IMG/VR virus record: IMGVR_UViG_3300002038_000007
Direction: 5' to 3' (one strand)
Source: an uncultured virus (IMG/VR IMGVR_UViG_3300002038_000007)
Lineage: Duplodnaviria > Heunggongvirae > Uroviricota > Caudoviricetes
DNA length: 64,000 nucleotides
The translations under genes and the position numbers were made by a program. The notes under the pieces were generated by a model. The model saw nothing but the letters and a program-made list of their open reading frames with translations, did no database searches and was not told where the DNA came from. Numbering within the stretch: position 1 is the stretch's first letter; each line of letters starts with the position of its first letter. Positions 16,927 through 33,124 of this stretch are shown in pieces.

Positions 16927-17148
16927 GTGGAAGTTAAGGGAACCGTCGAGACTGATCGGATTCAACTAAAACCAATGACTCAAGCTCAGCGTAATGCTCT
17001 GCCAAATCAGCGGGAAGGCGATGTGGTTTTTGTTGCCGATGGAGCGGGCAGTAAGCTGAGTACGCATGATGGGGCGGGGTTCACTGAGCCCGGGCCTACG
17101 GGGCAAGACTTCCAGCAAAACCAATCCAATGATCACGGCTTTTTTTAG
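16927..17148 (+). CDS. Small fibre-associated protein
   Basis: MTQAQRNAL...EGDVVF motif typical of fibre shoulder domains. Confidence 0.5.
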   Translation: MEVKGTVETDRIQLKPMTQAQRNALPNQREGDVVFVADGAGSKLSTHDGAGFTEPGPTGQDFQQNQSNDHGFF

Positions 17149-17157
17149 GAGTTGACT

Positions 17158-17907
17158 ATGGCTAACGAACTGCAACTGAAGCGCCGTATTTCTGGATCTG
17201 CTGGAGCTCCCCCCGCTCTTAAATCTGGCGAGCCTTCGGTCAATATGGTCGATGAGATCGTTTACATTGGCTTTGGTGATGATGGGGCAGGCGCGGCGAC
17301 ATCGATTGTCGCGATTGCCGGTCCTGGCGCCTATGTGGATAAGGTCAGTGGCCAAACGATCTCAGGCATCAAAGTTTTCTCAGTCCCGCCGACCGTACCA
17401 TCGCCTGTTGGCCCGAATGACGCCGTTAACAAAGCCTACGCAGATTCATTGGCAGGCACCGGGTTTACTGCAGGCAGCGGCATTGATGCAGCCCAGCTAA
17501 CATCTATGGTCATTCAAGCCGATGCCACCATCGCTCGCTTGGCTGACCCAATCTTTTCTGGAACCCCTACAGCACCTACCGCAACTACCGGCACCAACAC
17601 CACTCAGCTAGCAACAACTGCATTCGTTGCCGCGGCTGTAGCAGATTTGATCGGATCGGCCCCAGGGGCACTCGATACACTGGAAGAATTCGCAACTGCC
17701 TTGCAGAACAACCCGGATCAAATCACCGATATTCTGACTGCACAGGCGGGAAAGCTGACAGCATCCAGCAATTTATCCGATGTCGTAGACGCGGTTGTGG
17801 CGCGGGGCAACCTTGGGCTTGGCAGCATGGCCGTTCAGGATGCTGGGGCGGTAGCTATCACTGGCGGCACGATCGATAATGTGGTGATTGATGGAGGAAC
17901 GTTTTGA
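17158..17907 (+). CDS. Tail fibre protein (Mtd/hyaluronidase-type N-terminus)
   Basis: LQLKRR...PPALKSGEP...YIG; PTAPTATTGTNTTQLATTAFV; APGALDTLEE; NLSDV...ARGNLGLG; AGGAG RBS. Confidence 0.8.
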   Translation: MANELQLKRRISGSAGAPPALKSGEPSVNMVDEIVYIGFGDDGAGAATSIVAIAGPGAYVDKVSGQTISGIKVFSVPPTVPSPVGPNDAVNKAYADSLAGTGFTAGSGIDAAQLTSMVIQADATIARLADPIFSGTPTAPTATTGTNTTQLATTAFVAAAVADLIGSAPGALDTLEEFATALQNNPDQITDILTAQAGKLTASSNLSDVVDAVVARGNLGLGSMAVQDAGAVAITGGTIDNVVIDGGTF

Positions 17908-17910
17908 TCG

Positions 17911-18534
17911 ATGGCTGTCTCGCTGCGTATAAAAAAGTCGACAACAGCTGGCAATGTTCCGGCTTCACTTGATATCGGTGAAATCGCCGTTAACGAAGCT
18001 GATGAGCTGTTGTTCTATCGAGACAGTGCGGGTGAGGTTCAAGCGCATGATCTCGCTCCTCGATTTTACATCCCCATTTCCGGTCGAATTTACCTGCAAA
18101 CCAATGAGTATAACGGGTTTTCAGCTCTAGGGCCTTATGTTCAGAATCACAATAATGATCTTGGCAATGCGAATGCTGCATTCAATCCCAATCGCAATGC
18201 AACTGGGTTTTCTTTCCCACACAACATGACGGTGGAGCGTCTTTATGGGGACTTTCGAAACAACAATGTTGGCGCCCCTGCCTGGTCATTTGTCGTTTGG
18301 AAGCAGCTCAAAACCGAAGATAGCACTGTGGTCACAAATACGGTGCTATGGCAAGATTCAGATGACTTTCGAAACTATGCCGACAATTTACCGCACAAGA
18401 TCGATCAGACTATCGACCAACCATTAGCGGCGGGTGAAATGTTATCGCTCGCAGTGAGAGCTGCGATAAACAACAACACTGAATATGTCTACCCTCTTTC
18501 ACTGAGTTTTGTTTTAAAACGGGACTTTAGCTGA
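17911..18534 (+). CDS. Fibre/receptor-binding protein (Mtd-type N-terminus)
   Basis: IKKSTTAGNVPASLDIGEIAVNEADELLFY. Confidence 0.65.
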   Translation: MAVSLRIKKSTTAGNVPASLDIGEIAVNEADELLFYRDSAGEVQAHDLAPRFYIPISGRIYLQTNEYNGFSALGPYVQNHNNDLGNANAAFNPNRNATGFSFPHNMTVERLYGDFRNNNVGAPAWSFVVWKQLKTEDSTVVTNTVLWQDSDDFRNYADNLPHKIDQTIDQPLAAGEMLSLAVRAAINNNTEYVYPLSLSFVLKRDFS

Positions 18535-19022
18535 TGAACGCTCGCCAACTGAAGGACAAGCTTCGCCGTGACATTCGCGACGAGATTCTTGCGATTGATC
18601 CTGACGCTGAGATTACCGATGTTGCCATTGTGTACTGGCAGGATATTGATTGGCGAAGCCATATCAATGGCATTTATTCGGCGATCGATCGGCGCTATGT
18701 AGACACAATGTCAGCTCGCACGATTAAGGCGATGCATCAGCGCATCGATGCTTTGGTAAGCGCCTATAGAGCTGATAAAGAGAACGTACTGGTTGATGAG
18801 ACAGATTACCGTGGTTTAACCATCTACCTCGACCGGGAGGGCGAAGGAGCGGGCGCCATTCAGCCCCAAGGCGGGAGCCCTATTGCTCTCGATGAGGCTT
18901 TTGACGCGGTCTATGAGCTCCTTGATGTGCAGGCGCGAAAGATAGAATCTATGCAACAAGAGCTGAACCGATTCAAGGTGGCTGCTCAGCAGTTAGCGTT
19001 GTCGCTGTCGGAACCGGGTTGA
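18534..19022 (+). CDS. Hypothetical protein with C-terminal coiled coil
   Basis: Coupled 162-aa ORF ending the structural operon. Confidence 0.55.
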   Translation: MNARQLKDKLRRDIRDEILAIDPDAEITDVAIVYWQDIDWRSHINGIYSAIDRRYVDTMSARTIKAMHQRIDALVSAYRADKENVLVDETDYRGLTIYLDREGEGAGAIQPQGGSPIALDEAFDAVYELLDVQARKIESMQQELNRFKVAAQQLALSLSEPG

Positions 19023-19048
19023 CGCATCGTCTCTGGCTCCATTATGGT
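19019..19048 (+). promoter_or_regulatory. Sigma70-type promoter, tRNA module 1
   Basis: TTGACG (19019-24), 18 nt, TATGGT (19043-48); leader ATG 7 nt downstream, so probably a leaderless transcript. Confidence 0.65.
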
Positions 19049-19054
19049 GAGCCA

Positions 19055-19126
19055 ATGATCACTAGCCGCACGTCTTTGTTACGACTCCTGACCGGACCAA
19101 CTTTCGGATCGGAGACTCGCGACTAG
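19055..19126 (+). CDS. Leu-sensing attenuator leader peptide MITSRTSLLRLLTGPTFGSETRD
   Basis: TTG TTA CGA CTC CTG at 19076-90, followed by antiterminator, terminator and three tRNA-Leu genes. Confidence 0.8.
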   Translation: MITSRTSLLRLLTGPTFGSETRD

Positions 19127-19153
19127 TTTTCTAGAACATCGTTGAGCAGGGCA

Positions 19154-19179
19154 GCCTCCGATCTTTCGGGGGCTTTTTT
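19154..19179 (+). terminator. Intrinsic terminator (attenuator 1)
   Basis: GCCTCCGA-TCTT-TCGGGGGC-TTTTTT. Confidence 0.85.
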
Positions 19180-19185
19180 GTGTTG

Positions 19186-19262
19186 GCTGGAGTAGCCCAA
19201 TTGGCAGAGGCACTGGTTTTAGGCACCAGTCAGTGTCGGTTCGAATCCGACCTCCAGTACCA
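19186..19262 (+). tRNA. tRNA-Leu(TAG), short variable loop
   Basis: Cloverleaf; CTGGT-TTTAGGC-ACCAG; encoded CCA. Confidence 0.9.
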
Positions 19263-19339
19263 GCCCAACTGGCGCAATTGGCAGACGCGGCAAGCTTAAA
19301 CCTTGTCTGTTCTCGGTTCGATCCCGAGGTTGGGCACCA
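19263..19339 (+). tRNA. tRNA-Leu(TAA), short variable loop
   Basis: GCAAG-CTTAAAC-CTTGT; CCA. Confidence 0.9.
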
Positions 19340-19340
19340 T

Positions 19341-19417
19341 GCCGAGGTGACGCAATTGGTAGACGTGCTGGCCTCAAAAACCAGATGGTGAGGGTTCGAC
19401 TCCCTCCCTCGGCACCA
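19341..19417 (+). tRNA. tRNA-Leu(CAA), short variable loop
   Basis: CTGGC-CTCAAAA-ACCAG; CCA. Confidence 0.9.
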
Positions 19418-19423
19418 ATCTTC

Positions 19424-19453
19424 TTGACATGATAAATTCCGTCACTCTATATT
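19424..19453 (+). promoter_or_regulatory. Sigma70-type promoter, tRNA module 2
   Basis: TTGACA (19424-29), 18 nt, TATATT (19448-53). Confidence 0.75.
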
Positions 19454-19458
19454 TCCGA

Positions 19459-19534
19459 CGTGCTGTGGAGCAGTGGCTAGCTCGTCAGGCTCATAACCTG
19501 AAGGTCGTCGGTTCGAGTCCGACCAGCGCAACCA
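19459..19534 (+). tRNA. Initiator tRNA-fMet(CAT)
   Basis: C1:A72 mismatch; TCAGG-CTCATAA-CCTGA; CCA. Confidence 0.9.
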
Positions 19535-19551
19535 ACATGAGGTGTATCGAC

Positions 19552-19617
19552 GTGAACGCAATCTACTATTCGTGCTCATGGTTTAGTTCCGAAAAGGGGC
19601 TGCTGACGCACGTGTAA
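19552..19617 (+). CDS. Tyr/Ser/Cys/Trp/Phe-sensing leader peptide MNAIYYSCSWFSSEKGLLTHV
   Basis: GAGGTG RBS then GTG (in-frame ATG also at 19537); nine consecutive control codons TAC TAT TCG TGC TCA TGG TTT AGT TCC. Confidence 0.85.
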   Translation: MNAIYYSCSWFSSEKGLLTHV

Positions 19618-19647
19618 ACGCTTGATCACCATACACCGGCAGTCAGA

Positions 19648-19681
19648 GGTCCCCTCGGAGAAATCCCTGGGGGCCTTTTTT
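19648..19681 (+). terminator. Intrinsic terminator (attenuator 2)
   Basis: GGTCCCC-TCGGAGAAATCCCT-GGGGGCC-TTTTTT. Confidence 0.85.
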
Positions 19682-19689
19682 GTGTCAAC

Positions 19690-19764
19690 GCCTCTGTAGC
19701 TGAGAAGGATTAGCGCCGGTTTGAAGAACCGGAGAGGGCGGCTCGATACCGTCTGGGGGCACCA
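19690..19764 (+). tRNA. tRNA-Phe(GAA)
   Basis: CCGGT-TTGAAGA-ACCGG; CCA. Confidence 0.88.
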
Positions 19765-19784
19765 AACAAGGAGAGTAAAGCGAA

Positions 19785-19857
19785 GGGTAGGAGCCAGGGC
19801 AGTGGGCACGGTCTGTAAAACCGACGCCAGAGGGTTCGAGACCTTCCCTACCCACCA
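19785..19857 (+). tRNA. tRNA-Tyr(GTA), short variable loop
   Basis: CGGT-CTGTAAA-ACCG; acceptor GGGTAGG/CCTACCC; CCA. Confidence 0.85.
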
Positions 19858-19858
19858 T

Positions 19859-19932
19859 GCGGGATTCGTCTAATGGCAAGACAGCGGTCTCCAAAACCGA
19901 CAATGGAGGTTCGATTTCTCCATCCCGTGCCA
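19859..19932 (+). tRNA. tRNA-Trp(CCA)
   Basis: CGGT-CTCCAAA-ACCG; G73 CCA. Confidence 0.9.
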
Positions 19933-19938
19933 AATTAA

Positions 19939-20024
19939 GGATGGTTGGCAGAGTGGTAATGCAGCGCCCTGCTAAGGCGTACAAGGGCAACCTTGCGTTG
20001 GTTCGATCCCAACACCATCCGCCA
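19939..20024 (+). tRNA. tRNA-Ser(GCT)
   Basis: GCGCC-CTGCTAA-GGCGT; long variable arm; CCA. Confidence 0.92.
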
Positions 20025-20025
20025 T

Positions 20026-20101
20026 GATCCGGTAACGCAGAGGCCGACGTGCCTGGCTGCAAACCAGGAATACGCCGGTTCGACTCCGGCCCGGATCTCC
20101 A
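20026..20101 (+). tRNA. tRNA-Cys(GCA)
   Basis: CCTGG-CTGCAAA-CCAGG; U73 CCA. Confidence 0.9.
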
Positions 20102-20102
20102 A

Positions 20103-20189
20103 GGAGGAGAGGTGTATTGGCGGCATAACCGGTCCTGAAAACCGTCCGACCGCAAGGTCGTGTGGGTTCGATTCCCACCTCCTCCGCCA
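20103..20189 (+). tRNA. tRNA-Ser(TGA)
   Basis: CGGT-CCTGAAA-ACCG (C at position 33); long variable arm; CCA. Confidence 0.85.
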
Positions 20190-20199
20190 ACATTTTTGA

Positions 20200-20229
20200 T
20201 TGACAGTCTTATCAACTTATGCGTAACAG
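20200..20229 (+). promoter_or_regulatory. Probable promoter, tRNA module 3
   Basis: TTGACA at 20200-05 within imperfect palindrome TTGACAGTCTTATCAA; weak -10 (TAACAG). Confidence 0.55.
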
Positions 20230-20243
20230 TCATTATCTCTCTC

Positions 20244-20381
20244 ATGGCGAGACCAGCGATGACTATATTTTGCACACGAACAGTCGTCACAATAATCGGG
20301 CAGACCAGCGTCGTCCGTACCAATAAACGCGCCATGACGATGAAGACCATTCGAAATATCCGGCGACATAGACGCGGCTAA
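20244..20381 (+). CDS. Arg/His/Lys/Met/Thr/Ile/Val/Asn-rich leader peptide, 45 aa
   Basis: MARPAMTIFCTRTVVTIIGQTSVVRTNKRAMTMKTIRNIRRHRRG; 35 of 45 residues match the downstream tRNA set. Confidence 0.75.
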   Translation: MARPAMTIFCTRTVVTIIGQTSVVRTNKRAMTMKTIRNIRRHRRG

Positions 20382-20389
20382 TCAACTAG

Positions 20390-20465
20390 CTCCGCGTCGC
20401 CAACTGGACAGGCAGCCAGTCTTCTAAACTGGTTTGTGTGGGTTCGAATCCCGCCGCGGAGTCCA
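20390..20465 (+). tRNA. tRNA-Arg(TCT)
   Basis: CCAGT-CTTCTAA-ACTGG; CCA. Confidence 0.9.
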
Positions 20466-20466
20466 T

Positions 20467-20543
20467 GGTGGCCGTAGCTTAGTGGTAAAAGCGCTGGATT
20501 GTGACTCCAGAGATCGTCGGTTCAAATCCGATCGGCCACCCCA
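20467..20543 (+). tRNA. tRNA-His(GTG) with G-1:C73
   Basis: CTGGA-TTGTGAC-TCCAG; G-GTGGCCG/CGGCCAC-C-CCA. Confidence 0.92.
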
Positions 20544-20549
20544 ATCACC

Positions 20550-20625
20550 CCGCTCGTAGCTCAACAGGAAGAGTCGATGAGTCCTAATCATCAGGTTGCA
20601 AGTTCGAGTCCTGCCGGGAGCCCCA
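20550..20625 (+). tRNA. tRNA-Arg(CCT), acceptor stem defective (possible pseudogene)
   Basis: GATGA-GTCCTAA-TCATC; 5' strand GCTCG versus 3' CGGGAGC looks like a 2-nt deletion. Confidence 0.65.
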
Positions 20626-20630
20626 ATCAT

Positions 20631-20706
20631 GCCCATGTAGCTCAACTGGATGAGCAGCGGTCTACGAAGCCGCGTGATGGAGGTTCGAGTCCTCTCATGG
20701 GCTCCA
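20631..20706 (+). tRNA. tRNA-Arg(ACG)
   Basis: GCGGT-CTACGAA-GCCGC; CCA. Confidence 0.9.
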
Positions 20707-20747
20707 TCCACGAAACACGTCCACGAAAAGATCAATTCGTGGATATC

Positions 20748-20821
20748 GGGCCACAAGCATAGTGGCGATGCGTCGGCCTCTTAACCCGATGAGCACAGTT
20801 CAATTCTGTGGTGGCCTTCCA
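20748..20821 (+). tRNA. tRNA-Lys(CTT)
   Basis: TCGGC-CTCTTAA-CCCGA; CCA. Confidence 0.85.
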
Positions 20822-20846
20822 GAAAGGAGAATGTGACGTTTAATGA

Positions 20847-20920
20847 TCCTGCGTAGCTCAATGGTAGAGCGGGTCGCTCATAACGATTTGACGGTGGTTC
20901 GATTCCACCCGCAGGTACCA
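20847..20920 (+). tRNA. tRNA-Met or Ile2 (CAT)
   Basis: GGTCG-CTCATAA-CGATT; CCA; Met versus Ile2 not resolvable by eye. Confidence 0.85.
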
Positions 20921-20921
20921 C

Positions 20922-20998
20922 GCCCTCGTAACTCAGTGGTCAGAGTAGCTGTTTTGTAATCAGCCGGTCGCGGGTTCGAATCCTCGCCGAGGGCTCCA
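20922..20998 (+). tRNA. tRNA-Thr(TGT)
   Basis: GCTGT-TTTGTAA-TCAGC; CCA. Confidence 0.9.
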
Positions 20999-21001
20999 TT
21001 T

Positions 21002-21075
21002 GCTGGCGTAGCTCAATAGTAGAGCATTCGGCTGATAACCGGACGACGGTGGGGCAGAACCATCCGCCAGTACCA
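21002..21075 (+). tRNA. tRNA-Ile(GAT)
   Basis: TTCGG-CTGATAA-CCGGA; atypical T-loop GGCAGAA; CCA. Confidence 0.85.
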
Positions 21076-21076
21076 T

Positions 21077-21154
21077 AGAAGGGTAGCTCAGCCTGGCCAG
21101 AGCTGCGGTGTTACATACCGCGAGTCGTCGGTTCGAATCCGGCCCCTTCTACCA
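21077..21154 (+). tRNA. tRNA-Val(TAC)
   Basis: GCGGT-GTTACAT-ACCGC; CCA. Confidence 0.9.
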
Positions 21155-21156
21155 GT

Positions 21157-21234
21157 TCCAGGCTGGGGGAATGGTAGACCCGGCTGGCTGTTAACCAGCG
21201 TCTTTTCTCGGTTCGAGTCCGAGGCCTGGAGCCA
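21157..21234 (+). tRNA. tRNA-Asn(GTT)
   Basis: GCTGG-CTGTTAA-CCAGC; CCA. Confidence 0.9.
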
Positions 21235-21247
21235 ATTTTTCTGATGA

Positions 21248-21323
21248 GGGTGTGGGGCCGCACGGCGACGGCAAGATCCTTTTAAGTTCTAGGCAGCAGG
21301 TTCGACTCCTGTCACACCCTCCA
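21248..21323 (+). tRNA. tRNA-Lys(TTT)
   Basis: AGATC-CTTTTAA-GTTCT; acceptor GGGTGTG/CACACCC; CCA. Confidence 0.85.
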
Positions 21324-21603
21324 ATGCTCGGCACATGAGGATGACACGGCGCGACGGTTTTCTTCTGCCGTTGACGAGACGTTCGATGTAGTCTGGGGAG
21401 TAACCTAGAAGTTCGCCGACAGGCGCATAATCGCTTTTGATGCCGGGATGACCTGTGTCGTAATTATGTTCTAAAAACCATTCTCGAAAATTGAATTGCT
21501 CTGGACCGCCCGGTTCCTCGCCGGGCTCGATATCGTCGTATGCCCCACCGGGTCGCCCGCTCGGCTGTTCGGTAGGGTTGGTCGCGGCTGGTTGCGGTTG
21601 CAT
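21289..21603 (-). CDS. XRE-type HTH protein with Gln/Pro/Ala/Glu/Gly/Asp-rich N-terminus (putative autorepressor of tRNA module 4)
   Basis: AAGGA RBS; VGELLGYSPDYIERLVNGRRKPS HTH; last gene of the minus-strand tRNA operon. Confidence 0.8.
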   Translation of the reverse strand: MQPQPAATNPTEQPSGRPGGAYDDIEPGEEPGGPEQFNFREWFLEHNYDTGHPGIKSDYAPVGELLGYSPDYIERLVNGRRKPSRRVILMCRALEGVTGVEPAA

Positions 21604-21622
21604 GACGGTTTCCTTCGAGGGT

Positions 21623-21699
21623 TGGCAGGTCGGGCGGGATTCGAACCCACGATCCTGAATTCAAAGTCCAGAGCATTAGGCCAACTATGCTACCGACCA
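21623..21699 (-). tRNA. tRNA-Gln(TTG)
   Basis: Reverse complement: CTGGA-CTTTGAA-TTCAG; CCA. Confidence 0.9.
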
Positions 21700-21711
21700 G
21701 CAAGAGGGGAT

Positions 21712-21786
21712 TGGCAGCCGCACTAGGACTTGAACCTAGAACATCCACATTCAGAGTGTGGCGCTCTACCATTGAGCTATACGGCA
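21712..21786 (-). tRNA. tRNA-Gln(CTG)
   Basis: CCACA-CTCTGAA-TGTGG; CCA. Confidence 0.9.
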
Positions 21787-21796
21787 TTACCAAGAA

Positions 21797-21870
21797 TGGA
21801 GCGGGAGACGGGAATCGAACCCGTGTCATCAGTTTGGAAGACTGCGGCTCTACCATTGAGCTACACCCGC
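21797..21870 (-). tRNA. tRNA-Gly(TCC)
   Basis: CAGT-CTTCCAA-ACTG; GCGGG acceptor, U73 CCA. Confidence 0.92.
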
Positions 21871-21923
21871 TTAGCTTCCGCCGCCTCCTGAGTAGCTGCC
21901 CCATATGATAAGGCGGCGGAATT

Positions 21924-22001
21924 TGGAGCTGCTGACCGGATTCGAACCGGCATTTTCCAGAGTGAAAATCTGGAGTCCTAGTCCTGTTAGACGACAGCAG
22001 C
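21924..22001 (-). tRNA. tRNA-Glu(TTC)
   Basis: CCAGA-TTTTCAC-TCTGG; CCA. Confidence 0.9.
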
Positions 22002-22006
22002 AAAAC

Positions 22007-22082
22007 TGGCGAGCGTAAGGGGATTCGAACCCCTGTTGTCGGATAGACAATCCGAAGTCCTAGGCCTCTGGACGATACGCCC
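22007..22082 (-). tRNA. tRNA-Asp(GTC)
   Basis: TCGGA-TTGTCTA-TCCGA; CCA. Confidence 0.9.
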
Positions 22083-22087
22083 GTTGT

Positions 22088-22163
22088 TGGAACCGCCAAC
22101 CGGATTTGAACCGGTGTTTTCAGGTTGAGAACCTGATGTCCTTGACCGCTAGACGATGGCGAT
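22088..22163 (-). tRNA. tRNA-Glu(CTC)
   Basis: TCAGG-TTCTCAA-CCTGA; CCA. Confidence 0.9.
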
Positions 22164-22164
22164 T

Positions 22165-22240
22165 TGGTCAGGGTGGCTGGCACTGCCCCAGCGACCCCCT
22201 GCTTCCAAGGCAGGTACTCTGCTAGCTGAGCTACACCCTG
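22165..22240 (-). tRNA. tRNA-Pro(TGG)
   Basis: CCTGC-CTTGGAA-GCAGG; atypical T-loop GGCAGTG; CCA. Confidence 0.88.
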
Positions 22241-22241
22241 T

Positions 22242-22316
22242 TGGTGGATCTGGCAGGATTCGAACCCGCAACCTTCGCTGTGCAAAAGCGCTGCTCTCCC
22301 GTTGAGCTACAAACCC
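22242..22316 (-). tRNA. tRNA-Ala(TGC)
   Basis: CGCT-TTTGCAC-AGCG; G3:U70; CCA. Confidence 0.92.
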
Positions 22317-22329
22317 GATGATGTGGAGA

Positions 22330-22358
22330 TACTTAACGGACAAAATCCGTTAAGTCAA
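22330..22358 (-). promoter_or_regulatory. Promoter of tRNA module 4 with overlapping palindromic operator
   Basis: Minus strand TTGACT, 17 nt, TAAGTA; perfect inverted repeat ACTTAACGGA-N5-TCCGTTAAGT (22331-55) spans it. Confidence 0.8.
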
Positions 22359-22381
22359 TTATGGAATGATCGGCTGGTGAT

Positions 22382-22630
22382 CTAAGTATCTAGCTCTATC
22401 GTCACCATCATACCTTCAATCGGCAGGATCACAGGCGGGCTCTTAGGCACACGCCACAGCGCGCCCCTGCTATTCAAAATGAACCAGAACCCATCGACGA
22501 ATTTGTAGGTGGTGCCATCGCGGCATGGTGGCTTTGGGAGAGGCGTTGGGGGCGATGCGAGCGACGCGGCGCAGACTGGTATGGATGCGAAACCGATGGG
22601 AGCGGATCGAAGGAAGTCTCGACGGTTCAT
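22382..22630 (-). CDS. Small hypothetical protein with Tat-like N-terminus
   Basis: MNRRDFLR; ATGA overlap with upstream gene. Confidence 0.5.
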   Translation of the reverse strand: MNRRDFLRSAPIGFASIPVCAASLASPPTPLPKPPCRDGTTYKFVDGFWFILNSRGALWRVPKSPPVILPIEGMMVTIELDT

Positions 22631-23346
22631 GGGCTGTTATTAAAACAGTAAATGCATCGGTCTAATCCAATGGCGATCTCTAACACAGCAACGTCTTTGT
22701 TTTTTATTTGCGTAGGAAAGTCGGTTCGCTTTGAAATGGAGCACAGCTCCATCCACTTTTCGCCATTGTTGACTTCGACGTCCATTGTCAAGGTCGAGTA
22801 AGAGGGCAGCCGGTCGGATTCAATAATCCTTGTTGGCAATCCAAGGGCTTGATGAAACATCGCCTCAGCGTGTGGCCAAAATGACCCGTGGTAGTCATTT
22901 CCGCTATCGGCAGAGTAAGCACATTGAAATTCGAGCTGGTAGAATTCCTTCAGTCTCATATGCTTCACGGGCTGGATTTGCTCTCGTCGGAAGGACTTCC
23001 CGTATTGCCAGCAGCAGTATGGCAAACGGACTTTGTCATGTGACTCTAGTCGCTGCATCATATGAGCATAAGACGACGCGGTTGTTTCGGGGCGAAGGAT
23101 TAACCAGTGATCATGCTCGTCGGCGACGCGTTGATCAAAGACATCGGTCTCTGCGTCATAGGCGTCAGACAACAAGTTGACCGGCATAAGCAATGGTGCT
23201 TCGATTTGTTCAAATGACCATGCCTGATTCATGCCTAACAGGCGATCACGAACTGATATCGAAAAGAAGTCGATCAACCAGTTTCTGGTCTTGATGTCCT
23301 TCTCTGACCATGTCACCAGCCCGTTGATATCGAAAGTATTATCCAT
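22627..23346 (-). CDS. Class II aminoacyl-tRNA synthetase catalytic core (GlyRS alpha2-like), no anticodon-binding domain
   Basis: LRPETT, motif 2 QYGKSFRRE...RLKEFYQLEFQ, motif 3 LEIAIGLDR; only 239 aa. Confidence 0.85.
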   Translation of the reverse strand: MDNTFDINGLVTWSEKDIKTRNWLIDFFSISVRDRLLGMNQAWSFEQIEAPLLMPVNLLSDAYDAETDVFDQRVADEHDHWLILRPETTASSYAHMMQRLESHDKVRLPYCCWQYGKSFRREQIQPVKHMRLKEFYQLEFQCAYSADSGNDYHGSFWPHAEAMFHQALGLPTRIIESDRLPSYSTLTMDVEVNNGEKWMELCSISKRTDFPTQIKNKDVAVLEIAIGLDRCIYCFNNSP

Positions 23347-23836
23347 CAGGGAGATCCACCAACGCCTTTAACTTCTGGGCAAGAAACTCACATTCTGCGG
23401 TAACGTAGGCAAGATCACGATAAGGAGGCGGGAGGGGTTGGAAAGACAAGTGTTGCATCATCTCCCTCTCTCGAGAAACCATAGCTGGTAGCAAATCGGA
23501 ACCATGGGCGCAGTCAAACCCAAACCACCAAACATGATCGGATTCGCCTTCGCCTGGAATATGGCAGATAGAGTTCTTTTCATCACCTTCGGAACAAGGG
23601 CCGCTGAAGGTGAGTCCACCGTGAACATCGAAGTCGATATCGGCGTAGTTTTTTTCAAAAAACGGATGCCTTCGCTCGACACCAACGTAGCCGCACAAAC
23701 CGCCGAAACGATTGCGCACGATCAGACAAGGGAGCCCCGTCTCCTTGTCCTTCCATTGTTTTTTGTCAGGCTCGTCCTGCCAAGCGCCGTCCCCCCAGTC
23801 TGACTTATCCATCGTTTGATAGGTTATCGTTTCCAT
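23339..23836 (-). CDS. Conserved phage hypothetical protein
   Basis: LCGYVGV...HP...VHGGLTFS...WWFGFDCAH motif recognised from phage proteins. Confidence 0.7.
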   Translation of the reverse strand: METITYQTMDKSDWGDGAWQDEPDKKQWKDKETGLPCLIVRNRFGGLCGYVGVERRHPFFEKNYADIDFDVHGGLTFSGPCSEGDEKNSICHIPGEGESDHVWWFGFDCAHGSDLLPAMVSREREMMQHLSFQPLPPPYRDLAYVTAECEFLAQKLKALVDLPDG

Positions 23837-23930
23837 TTTACTCCCAATTCTTATTTTTTCGTGGCTCTCTCAAATCATAGACTCACTTCAATTTCAACGC
23901 TAAAAAGAAAGAAAATGGGCAACAACCATC

Positions 23931-24278
23931 ATGAAACTAGCGCTCGTCACCATTATTTCACCACTGCTCGTCGGTCCTTTGAGTCCAGTCGTGGCAAGCG
24001 ACATTGTGATTGAAAGGAATATTCCCGGCCGGCCAACGTCTTTGTTGGGCCACAACCCGCTGCTCGATGGCGTCGATCTCGAGACCCAGGTGAAAATGGC
24101 TCAAGACTTGCATGATCAGATCAATTTGGAAATCCGCCGCCTACAGGGGCTTCTCCAAAAACTACGCGCCCAAAGCGCAGAACACATCGAAGAAATCAAC
24201 GCGATAACCGATGAGATTGACGATGCTCGCACGGTGTTCAGCCTCCCTGGCCTGGAAGGCCAAGCTCTAAGCGATTAA
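23931..24278 (+). CDS. Secreted coiled-coil hypothetical protein
   Basis: Signal-peptide-like N-terminus, heptad pattern. Confidence 0.5.
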   Translation: MKLALVTIISPLLVGPLSPVVASDIVIERNIPGRPTSLLGHNPLLDGVDLETQVKMAQDLHDQINLEIRRLQGLLQKLRAQSAEHIEEINAITDEIDDARTVFSLPGLEGQALSD

Positions 24279-32083: not shown

Positions 32084-33124
32084 TTATGAGATCTCATCGC
32101 CAGTCTCTTTGTATTTTGGATTGAGGATCTTCACCATCAGGCGCGTGCCGTCTTCAGCTCGTCGATCAACGGAAGGCCGTATAACGATGCCTTCCTTGAT
32201 GTTATCTTCTGTCCCACTGACTTGTTCTCGACCTTTTGCCAGCTCGCGAATCTTGGCTTCGTTGAAGGGGCCTTCGTAGAGGATGGGCACCCATAATTTC
32301 AGTAGCGTTTCGGATACGTCTTCCATTCTAACCGATTCTCCATCGGCTCGAATATCGAAGATCCGTAGCGTTGGCATGCTCTGGCCATATTTGAAGGCCT
32401 GGGCTGGAATAACCTCACCCAAAAGCTGAACCGAGTGCTTAATCATTCCTTGGAGATTATTGATACGCGCCATTTCCCTCAGATAGCCCATCAACCCAAC
32501 ATTCTTCATCGCTGTCCAATAGATGTTTCGATCGCTTTCTAGGATATGGAGTCCCTTGCCTGCCATACCTTTGGAGGTGATGAAAACTCCACCATCAGGA
32601 GTGAACGTGCAGTTGATCTGTGTTCCGTGGATCTTCTCTGTGACGACGACCGCTTCACCATCCTGGAAATCATCTCGATAGATGCCAAATTGCTCAACAT
32701 CGTGCTTAGAAAACACGATACCATCAGGAAACGGCTCGCATAGGCCAGCCATGTCTTGAGAGATAGGAGGTTCGTACTTTGTGATGCCCAAGCGCCCGGC
32801 CAGGCATTCACCATTGTCAGCCTGGGCAACGAAGTCAGGAAGATCAGGCAAGGCGATTGTTACACCTTGAGACAGCTCTCCACGAAGCCGAACAGCCTTC
32901 ACGCGATCTTTGTTTGGGCCAACAAGGTAGTTTTTAAATGGCTCGGCAATATCATCAGGCAAAACCGATTTTTCCGGCGCAAAGACGACAACATCGCCGA
33001 TCACAAATGTGTCTTTCCGGGCAACGACCTGGAACGATCCCAGCTTGATGATATCCAGAGAATCCGCGTTGTAGTGCTTATTGATTCGTGTCACTTCGAG
33101 TTTAGCAACGGACCATTCACTCAT
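32084..33124 (-). CDS. RNA ligase, DRB0094/Rnl5-like family
   Basis: N-terminal OB-like module (HYNADSL, LRGELSQG); motif I TEKIHGT; KEGIVIRP; KILNPKY. Confidence 0.88.
   Translation of the reverse strand: MSEWSVAKLEVTRINKHYNADSLDIIKLGSFQVVARKDTFVIGDVVVFAPEKSVLPDDIAEPFKNYLVGPNKDRVKAVRLRGELSQGVTIALPDLPDFVAQADNGECLAGRLGITKYEPPISQDMAGLCEPFPDGIVFSKHDVEQFGIYRDDFQDGEAVVVTEKIHGTQINCTFTPDGGVFITSKGMAGKGLHILESDRNIYWTAMKNVGLMGYLREMARINNLQGMIKHSVQLLGEVIPAQAFKYGQSMPTLRIFDIRADGESVRMEDVSETLLKLWVPILYEGPFNEAKIRELAKGREQVSGTEDNIKEGIVIRPSVDRRAEDGTRLMVKILNPKYKETGDEIS

What the first reader, a model, noticed from the sequence alone, without database searches (positions are those of the whole stretch)
19424..20189. 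Module 2: five-amino-acid attenuator behind an unattenuated initiator tRNA
Seen: promoter, tRNA-fMet, RBS, then a leader with nine consecutive codons TAC TAT TCG TGC TCA TGG TTT AGT TCC (Y Y S C S W F S S). AGGGGCTGCTGAC (19595-607) can pair with GTCAGAGGTCCCCT (19642-55), which overlaps the terminator arm. After the terminator come exactly Phe, Tyr, Trp, Ser(GCT), Cys and Ser(TGA). The sensed set and supplied set match one to one. Inference: fMet, which an elongation stall cannot sense, is placed upstream of the attenuator.
Basis: partly seen in the sequence, partly recalled or inferred. Interest (0 to 1): 0.9.

Follow-up and report, generated by a model that had tools for sequence, protein, structure and literature searches.

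The report
Leader-peptide attenuator gating phage tRNA genes
A tiny translated test gene, written in the codons for Phe, Tyr, Trp, Ser and Cys and wired to a switchable transcription stop, sits just before the phage's tRNA genes for those five amino acids, so the phage probably makes them only when ribosomes read those codons slowly.

Summary
A near-consensus promoter (19424-19453) is followed by an initiator-type tRNA (19459-19534). Next come a Shine-Dalgarno site, a 21-codon reading frame (19552-19617) and a strong intrinsic terminator (19645-19681). The terminator ends 8 nt before tRNA-Phe, with no promoter in between.

The run YYSCSWFSS is the only run of 9 or more Phe/Tyr/Trp/Ser/Cys codons in all six frames of the window. 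Seven of 200,000 shuffles of the spacer reach that length.

Folding with a ribosome mask gives a classical attenuator. A ribosome stalled on the first 7-8 regulatory codons lets an antiterminator form (19595-19609 with 19639-19655). A ribosome at the stop codon blocks it.

Two neighbouring units repeat the codon match: a Leu leader before three tRNA-Leu, and a 14-codon run before Arg/His/Lys/Met/Thr/Ile/Val/Asn tRNAs.

This phage has no relatives in any collection searched. Unrelated uncultured phages do carry the same design, and there the leader composition tracks the downstream tRNAs.

Nine literature searches found no description of such control of tRNA genes. This scan's earlier notes report the same design on other DNA (71 findings, at least 66 genomes).

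All evidence is computational. The tRNA-Tyr call is just under threshold.

The parts
19424..19453 (+). Sigma-70-type promoter: TTGACA, 18-nt spacer, TATATT. The predicted start is about 19459-19460, at the 5' end of the first tRNA.
   Evidence: 11 of 12 matches; sequence
19459..19534 (+). Initiator-type tRNA-Met(CAT) with C1xA72 and A11:U24 and an encoded CCA. It lies upstream of the gate.
   Evidence: (62.4 bits)
19539..19544 (+). Shine-Dalgarno site GAGGTG, 7 nt before the GTG start. In the full-length fold it is paired with 19631-19637.
19552..19617 (+). Leader reading frame of 21 codons plus stop: (V/M)NAIYYSCSWFSSEKGLLTHV*. An in-frame alternative ATG lies at 19537.
19564..19590 (+). Nine regulatory codons: TAC TAT TCG TGC TCA TGG TTT AGT TCC (YYSCSWFSS).
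   Evidence: unique in six frames of the window; 7 of 200,000 shuffles reach this length
19571..19612 (+). Hairpin 1:2, pairing the regulatory codons with segment 2 (dG -15.7 for 19564-19614).
19595..19609 (+). Segment 2, the 5' arm of the antiterminator.
19639..19656 (+). Segment 3, the 3' arm of the antiterminator. It overlaps the terminator's 5' arm.
   Evidence: 2:3 helix dG -23.8 for 19592-19660
19645..19681 (+). Intrinsic terminator: a 10-pair outer stem plus a 3-pair inner stem, then T6. It ends 8 nt before tRNA-Phe.
19690..19764 (+). tRNA-Phe(GAA)
19785..19858 (+). Probable tRNA-Tyr(GTA), with a short variable arm and an encoded CCA.
   Evidence: 28.3 bits, gathering score 29; not called by ARAGORN
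19859..19932 (+). tRNA-Trp(CCA)
19939..20024 (+). tRNA-Ser(GCT)
20026..20101 (+). tRNA-Cys(GCA)
20103..20189 (+). tRNA-Ser(TGA)
   Evidence: (best Rfam hit is the tRNA-Sec model at 39.3 bits, same clan)

Best explanation
Module 2 is a ribosome-mediated (leader-peptide) transcription attenuator that gates six phage tRNA genes.

Transcription starts at the promoter at 19424-19453 and always yields the initiator-type tRNA. A ribosome then loads on the Shine-Dalgarno site just behind that tRNA and translates the 21-codon leader.

If Tyr-, Ser-, Cys-, Trp- and Phe-tRNAs are plentiful, the ribosome runs to the stop codon at 19615. There it covers segment 2 (19595-19609). Segment 3 is left to pair with segment 4, the terminator forms, and RNA polymerase stops 8 nt before tRNA-Phe.

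If any of these charged tRNAs is scarce, the ribosome stalls within 19564-19584. Hairpin 1:2 is disrupted and segment 2 stays free. Segment 2 pairs with segment 3 before segment 4 is made, and transcription runs on into Phe, Tyr, Trp, Ser, Cys and Ser.

The result is negative feedback: the phage supplies a tRNA set on demand.

Shown: the sequence elements, their order, the codon statistics and the predicted alternative folds. Inferred: that the leader is translated, that termination responds to stalling, and that the natural trigger is host tRNA shortage or damage rather than amino-acid starvation.
For: Anatomy. The order is promoter, tRNA-fMet, Shine-Dalgarno site, leader, terminator, then six tRNAs. 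No promoter-like site lies between the terminator and tRNA-Phe.

Codon match.
- This is the only run of 9 or more FYWSC codons in six frames of the window (0.047 expected). 7 of 200,000 spacer shuffles reach 9.
- All five amino acids are present. The Ser codons cover both Ser isoacceptors: AGT for GCT, and TCG/TCA for TGA.

Structure.
- Helix energies are 1:2 -15.7, 2:3 -23.8 and 3:4 -22.0 kcal/mol.
- The antiterminator pairs 8-9 of the 10 bases of the terminator's 5' arm when the A site is at 19552-19582, and 0-1 from 19585 to the stop.
- 26 of 1000 shuffled leaders show the same stall/stop contrast.

Internal replicates.
- Module 1 (19019-19185) has the codons TTG TTA CGA CTC CTG and a terminator before three tRNA-Leu. 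Its antiterminator forms only for stalls at 19073-19091. 21 of 1000 shuffles match the stall/stop contrast, and 3 of 1000 also match the no-ribosome state.
- Module 3 holds MTMKTIRNIRRHRR, the longest run of RHKMTIVN codons in the window, before tRNAs for exactly those eight amino acids.

Independent analogues in IMG/VR.
- A motif scan found 50 loci of one leader family, giving 32 distinct leader/tRNA-set combinations. 64 of 73 downstream tRNA amino-acid types (Trp excluded) occur in the leader. 0 of 20,000 permutations reach 64.
- In a strict survey of 9 spacers, mean coverage was 0.898 against 0.757 for permuted sets, and 0 of 2000 permutations reached it.
- Further lineages with the design are L092, L114 and L081/L095.
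Against: - No relative of this phage was found. Conservation and compensatory changes in this particular element therefore cannot be tested.
- No transcript data are available.
- In equilibrium folds of the full leader the terminator always forms, whatever the ribosome mask. The switch therefore depends on co-transcriptional kinetics that were not modelled.
- Without any ribosome the truncated transcript also forms the antiterminator (8 pairs). This differs from trp-type leaders and from Module 1.
- The last two codons (AGT, TCC) are not permissive stall sites at front edges of +13 or more. AGT is the only codon for Ser-GCT.
- TCC is not a standard wobble partner of either Ser tRNA.
- tRNA-Tyr scores 0.7 bit below Rfam's cut-off, and ARAGORN does not call it.
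- 2.6% of shuffles mimic the structural switch.
- Module 3 has the codon match but no intrinsic terminator. Codon matching and this gating mechanism need not always go together.
Confidence: 0.72

Rival explanations
1. The terminator is a fixed, leaky stop. It sets a constant ratio of initiator tRNA to the six elongator tRNAs. The short reading frame is not translated, or its composition is accidental.
For: The terminator is strong and forms in every equilibrium fold. Internal terminators in tRNA operons need not be regulated. 26 of 1000 shuffled leaders show the same predicted switch.
Against: It does not explain the nine-codon run (7 of 200,000 shuffles). It does not explain the strong Shine-Dalgarno site at 7 nt. 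It does not explain the same codon-to-tRNA match in Modules 1 and 3, or in unrelated phage families where leader composition tracks the tRNA set.
Confidence: 0.1
2. The leader does sense decoding of these codons, but the output is not the 2:3 versus 3:4 switch. Stalling might act through Rho, through RNase cleavage and tRNA maturation, or through transcript stability.
For: Module 3 has the codon match without an intrinsic terminator. Instead its leader's 3' end (20369-20375) pairs with the 5' acceptor strand of tRNA-Arg. In Module 2 a long-range helix pairs the Shine-Dalgarno region with 19631-19637.
Against: Modules 1 and 2 both have a canonical terminator abutting the first tRNA. In both, an antiterminator's availability follows the ribosome position as in classical attenuators.
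Confidence: 0.1
3. The run of codons works as RNA, not through translation. Uncharged tRNAs would pair by their anticodons with the leader, as with T-box specifier codons, and stabilise the antiterminator.
For: The regulated products are tRNAs, and the codons are complementary to their anticodons.
Against: The permissive Rfam scan of 17000-24000 gave only tRNA-clan hits, plus two sub-threshold Plastid-ycf2 matches that lie over tRNA genes. It gave no T-box hit. The codons lie in one frame, between a Shine-Dalgarno site with a start codon and a stop codon placed so that a terminating ribosome covers segment 2. Nine adjacent specifiers have no precedent in T-box leaders (from my own knowledge).
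Confidence: 0.03
4. The reading frame encodes a small functional peptide unrelated to tRNA control.
For: Small proteins are common among phage tRNA genes. The T5 tRNA region has many annotated small reading frames.
Against: No homologue or family could be sought for a 21-residue peptide. The composition and position are explained by the attenuator model. T5's small frames show no comparable codon match.
Confidence: 0.03

Closest known systems
Multivalent leader-peptide attenuators of enterobacterial amino-acid operons (ilvGMEDA leader for Leu/Val/Ile, thr leader for Thr/Ile; trpL, hisL, pheL as single-amino-acid forms). Named from my own knowledge; the pheL mechanism is described in passages of PMC3082878.
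   Same: A short translated leader with clustered regulatory codons. Overlapping 1:2, 2:3 and 3:4 helices. An intrinsic terminator. A stall at the regulatory codons favours the antiterminator, and a ribosome at the stop favours the terminator.
   Different: The regulated genes are tRNAs, not biosynthetic enzymes. Five amino acids are sensed by nine different consecutive codons, mostly one or two each. The element lies in a phage. A tRNA gene lies between the promoter and the leader. Without a ribosome the antiterminator is predicted to form.
pheM leader of the pheST (phenylalanyl-tRNA synthetase) operon of E. coli (from my own knowledge)
   Same: Attenuation that adjusts a component of the translation apparatus in response to the level of a charged tRNA.
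   Different: It controls a synthetase, not tRNA genes, and senses a single amino acid. I checked E. coli pheV directly. It has a plain promoter and no leader frame, so my recollection that tRNA-Phe genes are attenuated was not borne out for that gene.
T-box riboswitches
   Same: They sense the tRNA charging state and switch a terminator/antiterminator pair.
   Different: They need no translation, use one specifier codon and have a conserved T-box fold. No T-box match was found here.
Leader-peptide attenuators in front of phage tRNA arrays, noted earlier by this scan on other DNA (unpublished AI notes) and found independently here in IMG/VR contigs
   Same: Promoter, short frame written in the codons of the downstream tRNAs, and a terminator a few bases before the first tRNA.
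   Different: There is no sequence similarity to those families. This phage splits its plus-strand array into three codon-matched units.

Membership tests
Leader-peptide (ribosome-mediated) transcription attenuators | A short reading frame with translation start signals, upstream of the regulated genes | tested here: met
   GAGGTG at 19539-19544, 7 nt before GTG at 19552; 21 codons; stop at 19615
Leader-peptide (ribosome-mediated) transcription attenuators | A cluster of codons for the amino acid(s) to which the regulated genes relate | tested here: met
   Nine consecutive codons covering all five amino acids of the six downstream tRNAs. Unique in the window; 7 of 200,000 shuffles reach this length.
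Leader-peptide (ribosome-mediated) transcription attenuators | An intrinsic terminator between the leader and the regulated genes, with no promoter after it | tested here: met
   Stem plus T6 at 19645-19681, 8 nt before tRNA-Phe. The plus-strand promoter-like sites in 18000-22000 are at 19019, 19424 and 20269 only.
Leader-peptide (ribosome-mediated) transcription attenuators | A mutually exclusive antiterminator that uses the terminator's 5' arm | tested here: met
   19595-19609 pairs with 19639-19655, dG -23.8 kcal/mol
Leader-peptide (ribosome-mediated) transcription attenuators | Geometry: a stall at the regulatory codons frees the antiterminator arm, and a ribosome at the stop covers it | tested here: met
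   Masked folds give 8-9 pairs for the A site at 19552-19582 and 0-1 from 19585 to the stop. This is robust for front edges of +10 to +17. 26 of 1000 shuffles do the same.
Leader-peptide (ribosome-mediated) transcription attenuators | Read-through that rises when the cognate charged tRNA is limiting | not testable with these tools
   One DNA run holds the stretch, so no transcript data could be examined.
Leader-peptide (ribosome-mediated) transcription attenuators | The regulated genes are amino-acid biosynthesis or synthetase genes (all described members, to my knowledge) | tested here: not met
   The regulated genes are six tRNAs. This makes it a new target class, not a failure of the mechanism.
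Leader-peptide (ribosome-mediated) transcription attenuators | Conservation of the helices, with compensatory changes, in relatives | not testable with these tools
   No relative was found in GenBank phages, PLSDB, IMG/VR, GTDB genomes or JGI metagenomes.
T-box riboswitch | A match to the T-box covariance model | tested here: not met
   The permissive Rfam scan of 17000-24000 gave no T-box hit.
Phage tRNA-array leader attenuators (unpublished; this scan's notes) | Leader amino-acid content matches the tRNA genes behind the terminator | tested here: met
   5 of 5 amino acids in Module 2. In the analogue family, 64 of 73 amino-acid types.

The most novel reading that the evidence does not exclude
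Phage tRNA arrays are demand-driven regulons. Each block of tRNA genes would be transcribed only when ribosomes stall on a test peptide written in the codons that block reads. This gives the phage a per-codon-class sensor of host tRNA shortage, damage (for example by anticodon nucleases) or under-modification, while the initiator tRNA is made constitutively ahead of the gate. In this phage the blocks follow codon classes: Module 2 uses almost only UNN codons, whose decoders share A36 and A37 modification by MiaA (from my own knowledge). The leader could therefore also report the modification state of the host's tRNA pool.
Probability: 0.45. Interest if true: 0.9.

Novelty: new variant of a known kind. 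Interest (0 to 1): 0.8.

Why it matters
Why phages carry tRNA genes is much debated, and how they control them is essentially unknown. If these leaders work as predicted, tRNA supply is regulated by the same ribosome-stalling logic that bacteria use for amino-acid synthesis. The logic would be turned onto the translation machinery itself and split by codon class.

That would make phage tRNA arrays a responsive countermeasure to host tRNA depletion rather than a fixed codon-usage supplement.

It would also provide compact natural sensors of decoding speed for chosen codons, which are directly testable with reporters. This window offers an unusually clean case: nine of nine codons, five of five amino acids, and an initiator tRNA outside the gate.

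Tried and rejected
Relatives of this phage. None was found, by any of these routes:
- blastn of 18900-22400 against GenBank phages and PLSDB plasmids matched single tRNAs only.
- An IMG/VR scan for the exact 27-mer of regulatory codons found nothing.
- IMG/VR scans with the upstream 162-aa protein and the primase/helicase found nothing.
- The MazG-like neighbour gave 15 loci, none with a syntenic tRNA array.
- A pattern built from segments 2 and 3 found nothing in IMG/VR.
- GTDB genomes searched with the 162-aa protein gave nothing.
- JGI metagenomes searched with the initiator tRNA's 3' 23-mer gave nothing.

Other dead ends:
- No whole genome is held for the window.
- Sequencing runs: one DNA holder (an algae metagenome) and no RNA holder listed. 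I did not lay reads.
- Roseobacter phage DSS3P8, the best tRNA-level hit, has scattered tRNAs and no comparable unit.
- The T5 tRNA region has many small frames but no codon-matched leaders.
- The analogue leader family has no match among cultured phages.
- The minus-strand array (Ala, Pro, Glu, Asp, Glu, Gly, Gln, Gln) has no leader. The frame upstream of it is an 82-aa protein with a twin-arginine-like start.
- Equilibrium folding of the whole leader with ribosome masks was uninformative, because the terminator always wins. I switched to transcripts truncated before the terminator's 3' arm.
- My recollection that E. coli tRNA-Phe genes have attenuator leaders was checked on pheV and not borne out.

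Literature. Nine full-text searches and passages of PMC3082878 and PMC4810235 gave no description of leader-peptide attenuation of tRNA genes. Older subscription papers on the T5 tRNA region are not in the library.
Full report
**What the window is.** The window is a phage. It encodes tail-fibre proteins, an integrase, an RNA ligase, a primase/helicase, a partition protein and a terminase. Its G+C content is 52.7%. Only one public DNA run holds it, an algae metagenome, and no whole genome is held.

Between 19186 and 22316 lies an array of 29 tRNA genes. ARAGORN finds 26. The Rfam tRNA model adds three: 19785-19854, 21002-21072 and 22168-22240 on the minus strand. By their anticodon loops, read by eye, these are Tyr-GTA, Ile-GAT and Pro-TGG. 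Together the 29 genes cover all 20 amino acids.

**The observation.**
- The promoter TTGACA-18-TATATT at 19424-19453 matches 11 of 12 positions.
- The tRNA at 19459-19534 has anticodon CAT, a C1xA72 mismatch and A11:U24. These are two hallmarks of bacterial initiator tRNA, named from my own knowledge. It has two of the three G:C pairs in the anticodon stem.
- A second CAT tRNA, at 20847-20920, has the elongator pattern C11:G24.
- Directly behind the first tRNA lie GAGGTG (19539-19544), 7 nt of spacer and GTG at 19552. An in-frame ATG lies at 19537.
- The frame reads (V/M)NAIYYSCSWFSSEKGLLTHV and stops at 19615-19617. The nine codons TAC TAT TCG TGC TCA TGG TTT AGT TCC occupy 19564-19590.
- A terminator follows: a 10-pair outer stem (19645-19654 with 19669-19678), a 3-pair inner stem, a T6 run at 19676-19681, and dG of -22 kcal/mol.
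- tRNA-Phe starts 8 nt later, at 19690. The consensus scan finds no promoter-like site between the leader and tRNA-Phe. Its only plus-strand sites in 18000-22000 are at 19019, 19424 and 20269.
- Phe-GAA, Trp-CCA, Ser-GCT, Cys-GCA and Ser-TGA follow.
- Tyr-GTA at 19785-19854 scores 28.3 bits against a gathering score of 29. It has a short variable arm and is not called by ARAGORN. It is probable, not certain.

**Is it more than chance?** The amino-acid set is fixed by the downstream tRNAs, not chosen after the fact.
- In all six frames of the 64-kb window this is the only run of 9 or more Phe/Tyr/Trp/Ser/Cys codons. 0.047 such runs are expected, and the next longest run is 8.
- Of 200,000 dinucleotide-preserving shuffles of the 155-nt spacer, 7 reach a run of 9.
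- All five amino acids occur in the run.
- At the codon level, TAC/TAT fit GTA, TGC fits GCA, TGG fits CCA, TTT fits GAA, AGT fits GCT, and TCG/TCA fit TGA. TCC is not a standard wobble partner of either Ser tRNA.

**Structure.** The full leader folds into hairpin 1:2, which pairs the regulatory codons with 19596-19612, plus the terminator. A long-range helix also pairs the Shine-Dalgarno region (19541-19547) with 19631-19637. The energy is -55.3 kcal/mol, with a z-score of -2.7 against shuffles.

With ribosome masks on the full-length RNA the terminator always forms. Equilibrium folding is therefore uninformative, as it would be for any kinetic switch.

I then folded the transcript as it exists before the terminator's 3' arm is made, up to 19660-19664. 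In that transcript 19595-19609 pairs with 19639-19655. Helix energies are 1:2 -15.7, 2:3 -23.8 and 3:4 -22.0 kcal/mol.

The masked-ribosome results are as follows.
- With the A site anywhere from the start codon to TTT (19582), 8-9 of the 10 bases of the terminator's 5' arm are held by the antiterminator.
- From AGT (19585) to the stop codon, only 0-1 are held.
- The boundary moves by one or two codons for front edges of +10 to +17.
- The last two Ser codons are therefore poor stall sites for read-through.
- As a control, 26 of 1000 leaders shuffled between the start codon and the terminator show the same stall/stop contrast.
- Without any ribosome the antiterminator also forms (8 pairs). Failure to translate the leader would thus be predicted to open the gate, unlike trp.

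**Internal replicates.**

Module 1:
- It consists of the promoter at 19019-19048, a reading frame at 19055-19126 (MITSRTSLLRLLTGPTFGSETRD) and a terminator at 19153-19174 followed by a T run (to about 19181).
- Three tRNA-Leu (TAG, TAA, CAA) follow.
- Its ATG lies 7 nt after the -10 hexamer, which suggests a leaderless message.
- The four Leu codons TTG, TTA, CTC and CTG fit the three anticodons.
- In masked folds the antiterminator (19109-19117 with 19153-19161) forms only for A sites at 19073-19091. That is the Leu codons plus one codon on either side.
- It does not form without a ribosome or at the stop.
- 21 of 1000 shuffles match the stall/stop contrast. 3 of 1000 also match the no-ribosome state.

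Module 3:
- The frame 20244-20381 ends in MTMKTIRNIRRHRR, 14 codons at 20334-20375.
- This is the longest run of Arg/His/Lys/Met/Thr/Ile/Val/Asn codons in the window, and the only one of 12 or more.
- It is followed by tRNAs for Arg, His, Arg, Arg, Lys, Met, Thr, Ile, Val, Asn and Lys, which is exactly that set.
- It has no intrinsic terminator. Instead its 3' end (20369-20375) pairs with the 5' acceptor strand of tRNA-Arg.
- Its mode of action is therefore open.

The minus-strand array has no leader.

**Related sequences.** I found no relative of this phage. This particular element therefore cannot be tested by conservation.

I asked instead whether the design recurs elsewhere.

- *Sample.* A pattern of three adjacent canonical T-loops drew a sample of 121 IMG/VR tRNA arrays.
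- *First survey.* A script scored the reading frames in 413 spacers upstream of tRNA runs against the amino acids of each run. Among the top scorers were modules with the same architecture in unrelated, AT-rich contigs.
- *One leader family.* This family has a conserved Shine-Dalgarno site, the C-terminus G(R/G)GMS and the terminator AGCCCCTAGC...GTTAGGGGCTTTTTTT. A motif scan recovered it at 50 loci, giving 32 distinct leader/tRNA-set combinations.
- *Examples from that family:*
  - MIKTNTTSIIGWPSRKWGMS before Trp, Pro, Gly, Ser, Met, Ile.
  - ...QQPIYWYPILGRGMS before Trp, Ile, Tyr, Pro.
  - ...QQSSSQNWCPPKGRGMS before Trp, Pro, Gln.
- *Statistics for that family.*
  - Excluding the invariant Trp, 64 of 73 downstream tRNA amino-acid types occur in the leader core.
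  - None of 20,000 permutations of tRNA sets among leaders reaches 64 (mean 52.3, sd 2.6).
  - Cys codons track tRNA-Cys, with counts 18/6/0/8 and Fisher p = 2.9e-4. The other amino acids tested singly are not significant.
  - Shared ancestry is not removed by this test.
- *Fold behaviour.* In six members the GGGG:CCCC antiterminator forms for A sites up to the Trp codon and drops one to three codons later. At the stop codon the result is mixed, 0-7 of 10 bases.
- *Stricter survey.* I required a terminator 45 nt or less from the first tRNA. This gave 16 spacers, 9 of which had three or more amino acids and a short frame.
  - 6 of the 9 leaders contain every downstream amino acid. 41 of 2000 permutations reach 6.
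  - Mean coverage is 0.898 against 0.757 for permuted sets, and 0 of 2000 permutations reach it.
- *Further lineages.*
  - L092: ...TTTVRTRVNGRG... before Gly, Thr, Arg, Arg, Ala, Val.
  - L114: an Asn/Pro-rich leader before Asn, Asn, Pro, Pro, Pro.
  - L081 and L095...YSQPNLIWEGR... before Asn, Tyr, Pro, Trp, Arg, Leu.
- *Negative case.* Phage T5 shows nothing comparable.

**The initiator tRNA.** By position it is transcribed from the promoter at 19424 whatever the terminator does.

In the analogue family all 11 CAT tRNAs behind the terminator are elongator-type, with G1:C72 and Y11:R24. Only one further initiator-like tRNA occurs in the sample, and its context is uninformative.

**Mechanism proposed.** This is classical ribosome-mediated attenuation, applied to tRNA supply as negative feedback.
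- Fast decoding of the nine codons carries the ribosome onto segment 2, and the terminator fires.
- A stall on any of roughly the first seven or eight codons leaves segment 2 free to capture segment 3, and RNA polymerase runs into the six tRNA genes.

The trigger could be host tRNA scarcity, tRNA cleavage by host defences, poor modification, or amino-acid starvation. The sequence cannot tell which. Eight of the nine codons start with U. Their decoders share A36 and, in bacteria, MiaA-dependent modification of A37 (my own knowledge). Passages of PMC3082878 name miaA among mutants that lower tRNA-Phe function and can de-repress pheA, though its authors saw no de-repression with miaA1 on their own reporter.

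**Comparison with what is known.** The mechanism is that of the trp, his, phe, thr and ilv leaders. Sensing of several amino acids at once is known from thr and ilv (my own knowledge).

What differs is the regulated product (tRNA genes), the phage setting, the one-to-one design of the sensed and supplied sets, and a tRNA gene ahead of the leader.

T-box control is excluded by the lack of any T-box match and by the translation signals.

I checked E. coli pheV and found no leader.

**Prior descriptions.** Nine full-text searches found no description of leader-peptide attenuation of tRNA genes. The library lacks most older subscription papers.

The scan's own earlier notes report the same design on other DNA: 71 findings in at least 66 genomes. 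One of them has an initiator tRNA ahead of the gate. These are unchecked AI notes. I list them as agreement only, not as independent evidence. My own survey stands apart from them.

**Verdict.** The attenuator reading is the best explanation, with confidence about 0.72. It rests on sequence, predicted folds, two internal replicates and analogous modules in unrelated phages. No experiment and no conservation of this particular element support it yet. Against the published record it is a new variant of a known kind of control.

Noticed in passing
window 19019-19185: Module 1: a promoter, a probably leaderless frame MITSRTSLLRLLTGPTFGSETRD (its ATG lies 7 nt after the -10 hexamer), and a terminator, directly before three tRNA-Leu. 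The predicted antiterminator forms only when the ribosome sits on the Leu codons (plus one codon on either side).
   Followed up: yes
window 20244-20398: Module 3: the frame ends in MTMKTIRNIRRHRR, the longest run of these eight amino acids in the window. It lies before tRNAs for exactly those eight. There is no intrinsic terminator. Instead the leader's end pairs with the 5' acceptor strand of tRNA-Arg(TCT). The gating mechanism is unexplained.
   Followed up: partly
window 19186-22316: 29 tRNA genes cover all 20 amino acids. The blocks follow codon classes: Leu; then UNN decoders plus Ser-GCT; then mostly ANN decoders plus His, Arg-ACG and Val; then, on the other strand, Ala, Pro, Glu, Asp, Gly and Gln.
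   Followed up: partly
window 22627-23346 (-): A 239-aa protein next to the tRNA array matches the class II aminoacyl-tRNA synthetase core (PF00587, 39.3 bits) and, weakly, HisRS. It is only core-sized. Its role is unknown.
   Followed up: no
window 32084-33124 (-): An RNA ligase (PF09414, phrog_968) in the same phage. This would fit a phage that meets tRNA-cleaving host defences, but no kinase/phosphatase partner was looked for.
   Followed up: no
window 19541-19547 with 19631-19637: In the full-length leader fold the Shine-Dalgarno region is paired with a segment between segments 2 and 3. This could limit the leader to one round of translation.
   Followed up: no
window 19785-19854: The probable tRNA-Tyr has a short variable arm, unlike the long-arm tRNA-Tyr usual in bacteria, and falls 0.7 bit below Rfam's cut-off.
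   Followed up: partly
L139-L188 (IMG/VR), e.g. L144:1480-1700: A conserved leader family (...W-P/C...G-M-S stop, terminator AGCCCCTAGC...GTTAGGGGCT) heads tRNA runs that start with tRNA-Trp in 49 of 50 loci. The leader core and terminator look more conserved than the few tRNA-Trp genes I compared by eye. No cultured phage matched.
   Followed up: partly
L092, L114, L081, L095 (IMG/VR): Further, sequence-unrelated leader-plus-terminator units whose peptides contain the amino acids of the tRNAs behind them.
   Followed up: partly
L189:14628-14756 (-), phage T5 gene T5.070: A 42-aa frame with five Cys (CxxC-type pairs) lies directly upstream of T5 tRNA-Cys. It is probably a small zinc-ribbon protein and a coincidence.
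   Followed up: no
window 21289-21603 (-): A 104-aa protein with a weak helix-turn-helix match sits between the two tRNA arrays. Its frame ends inside tRNA-Lys on the opposite strand.
   Followed up: no
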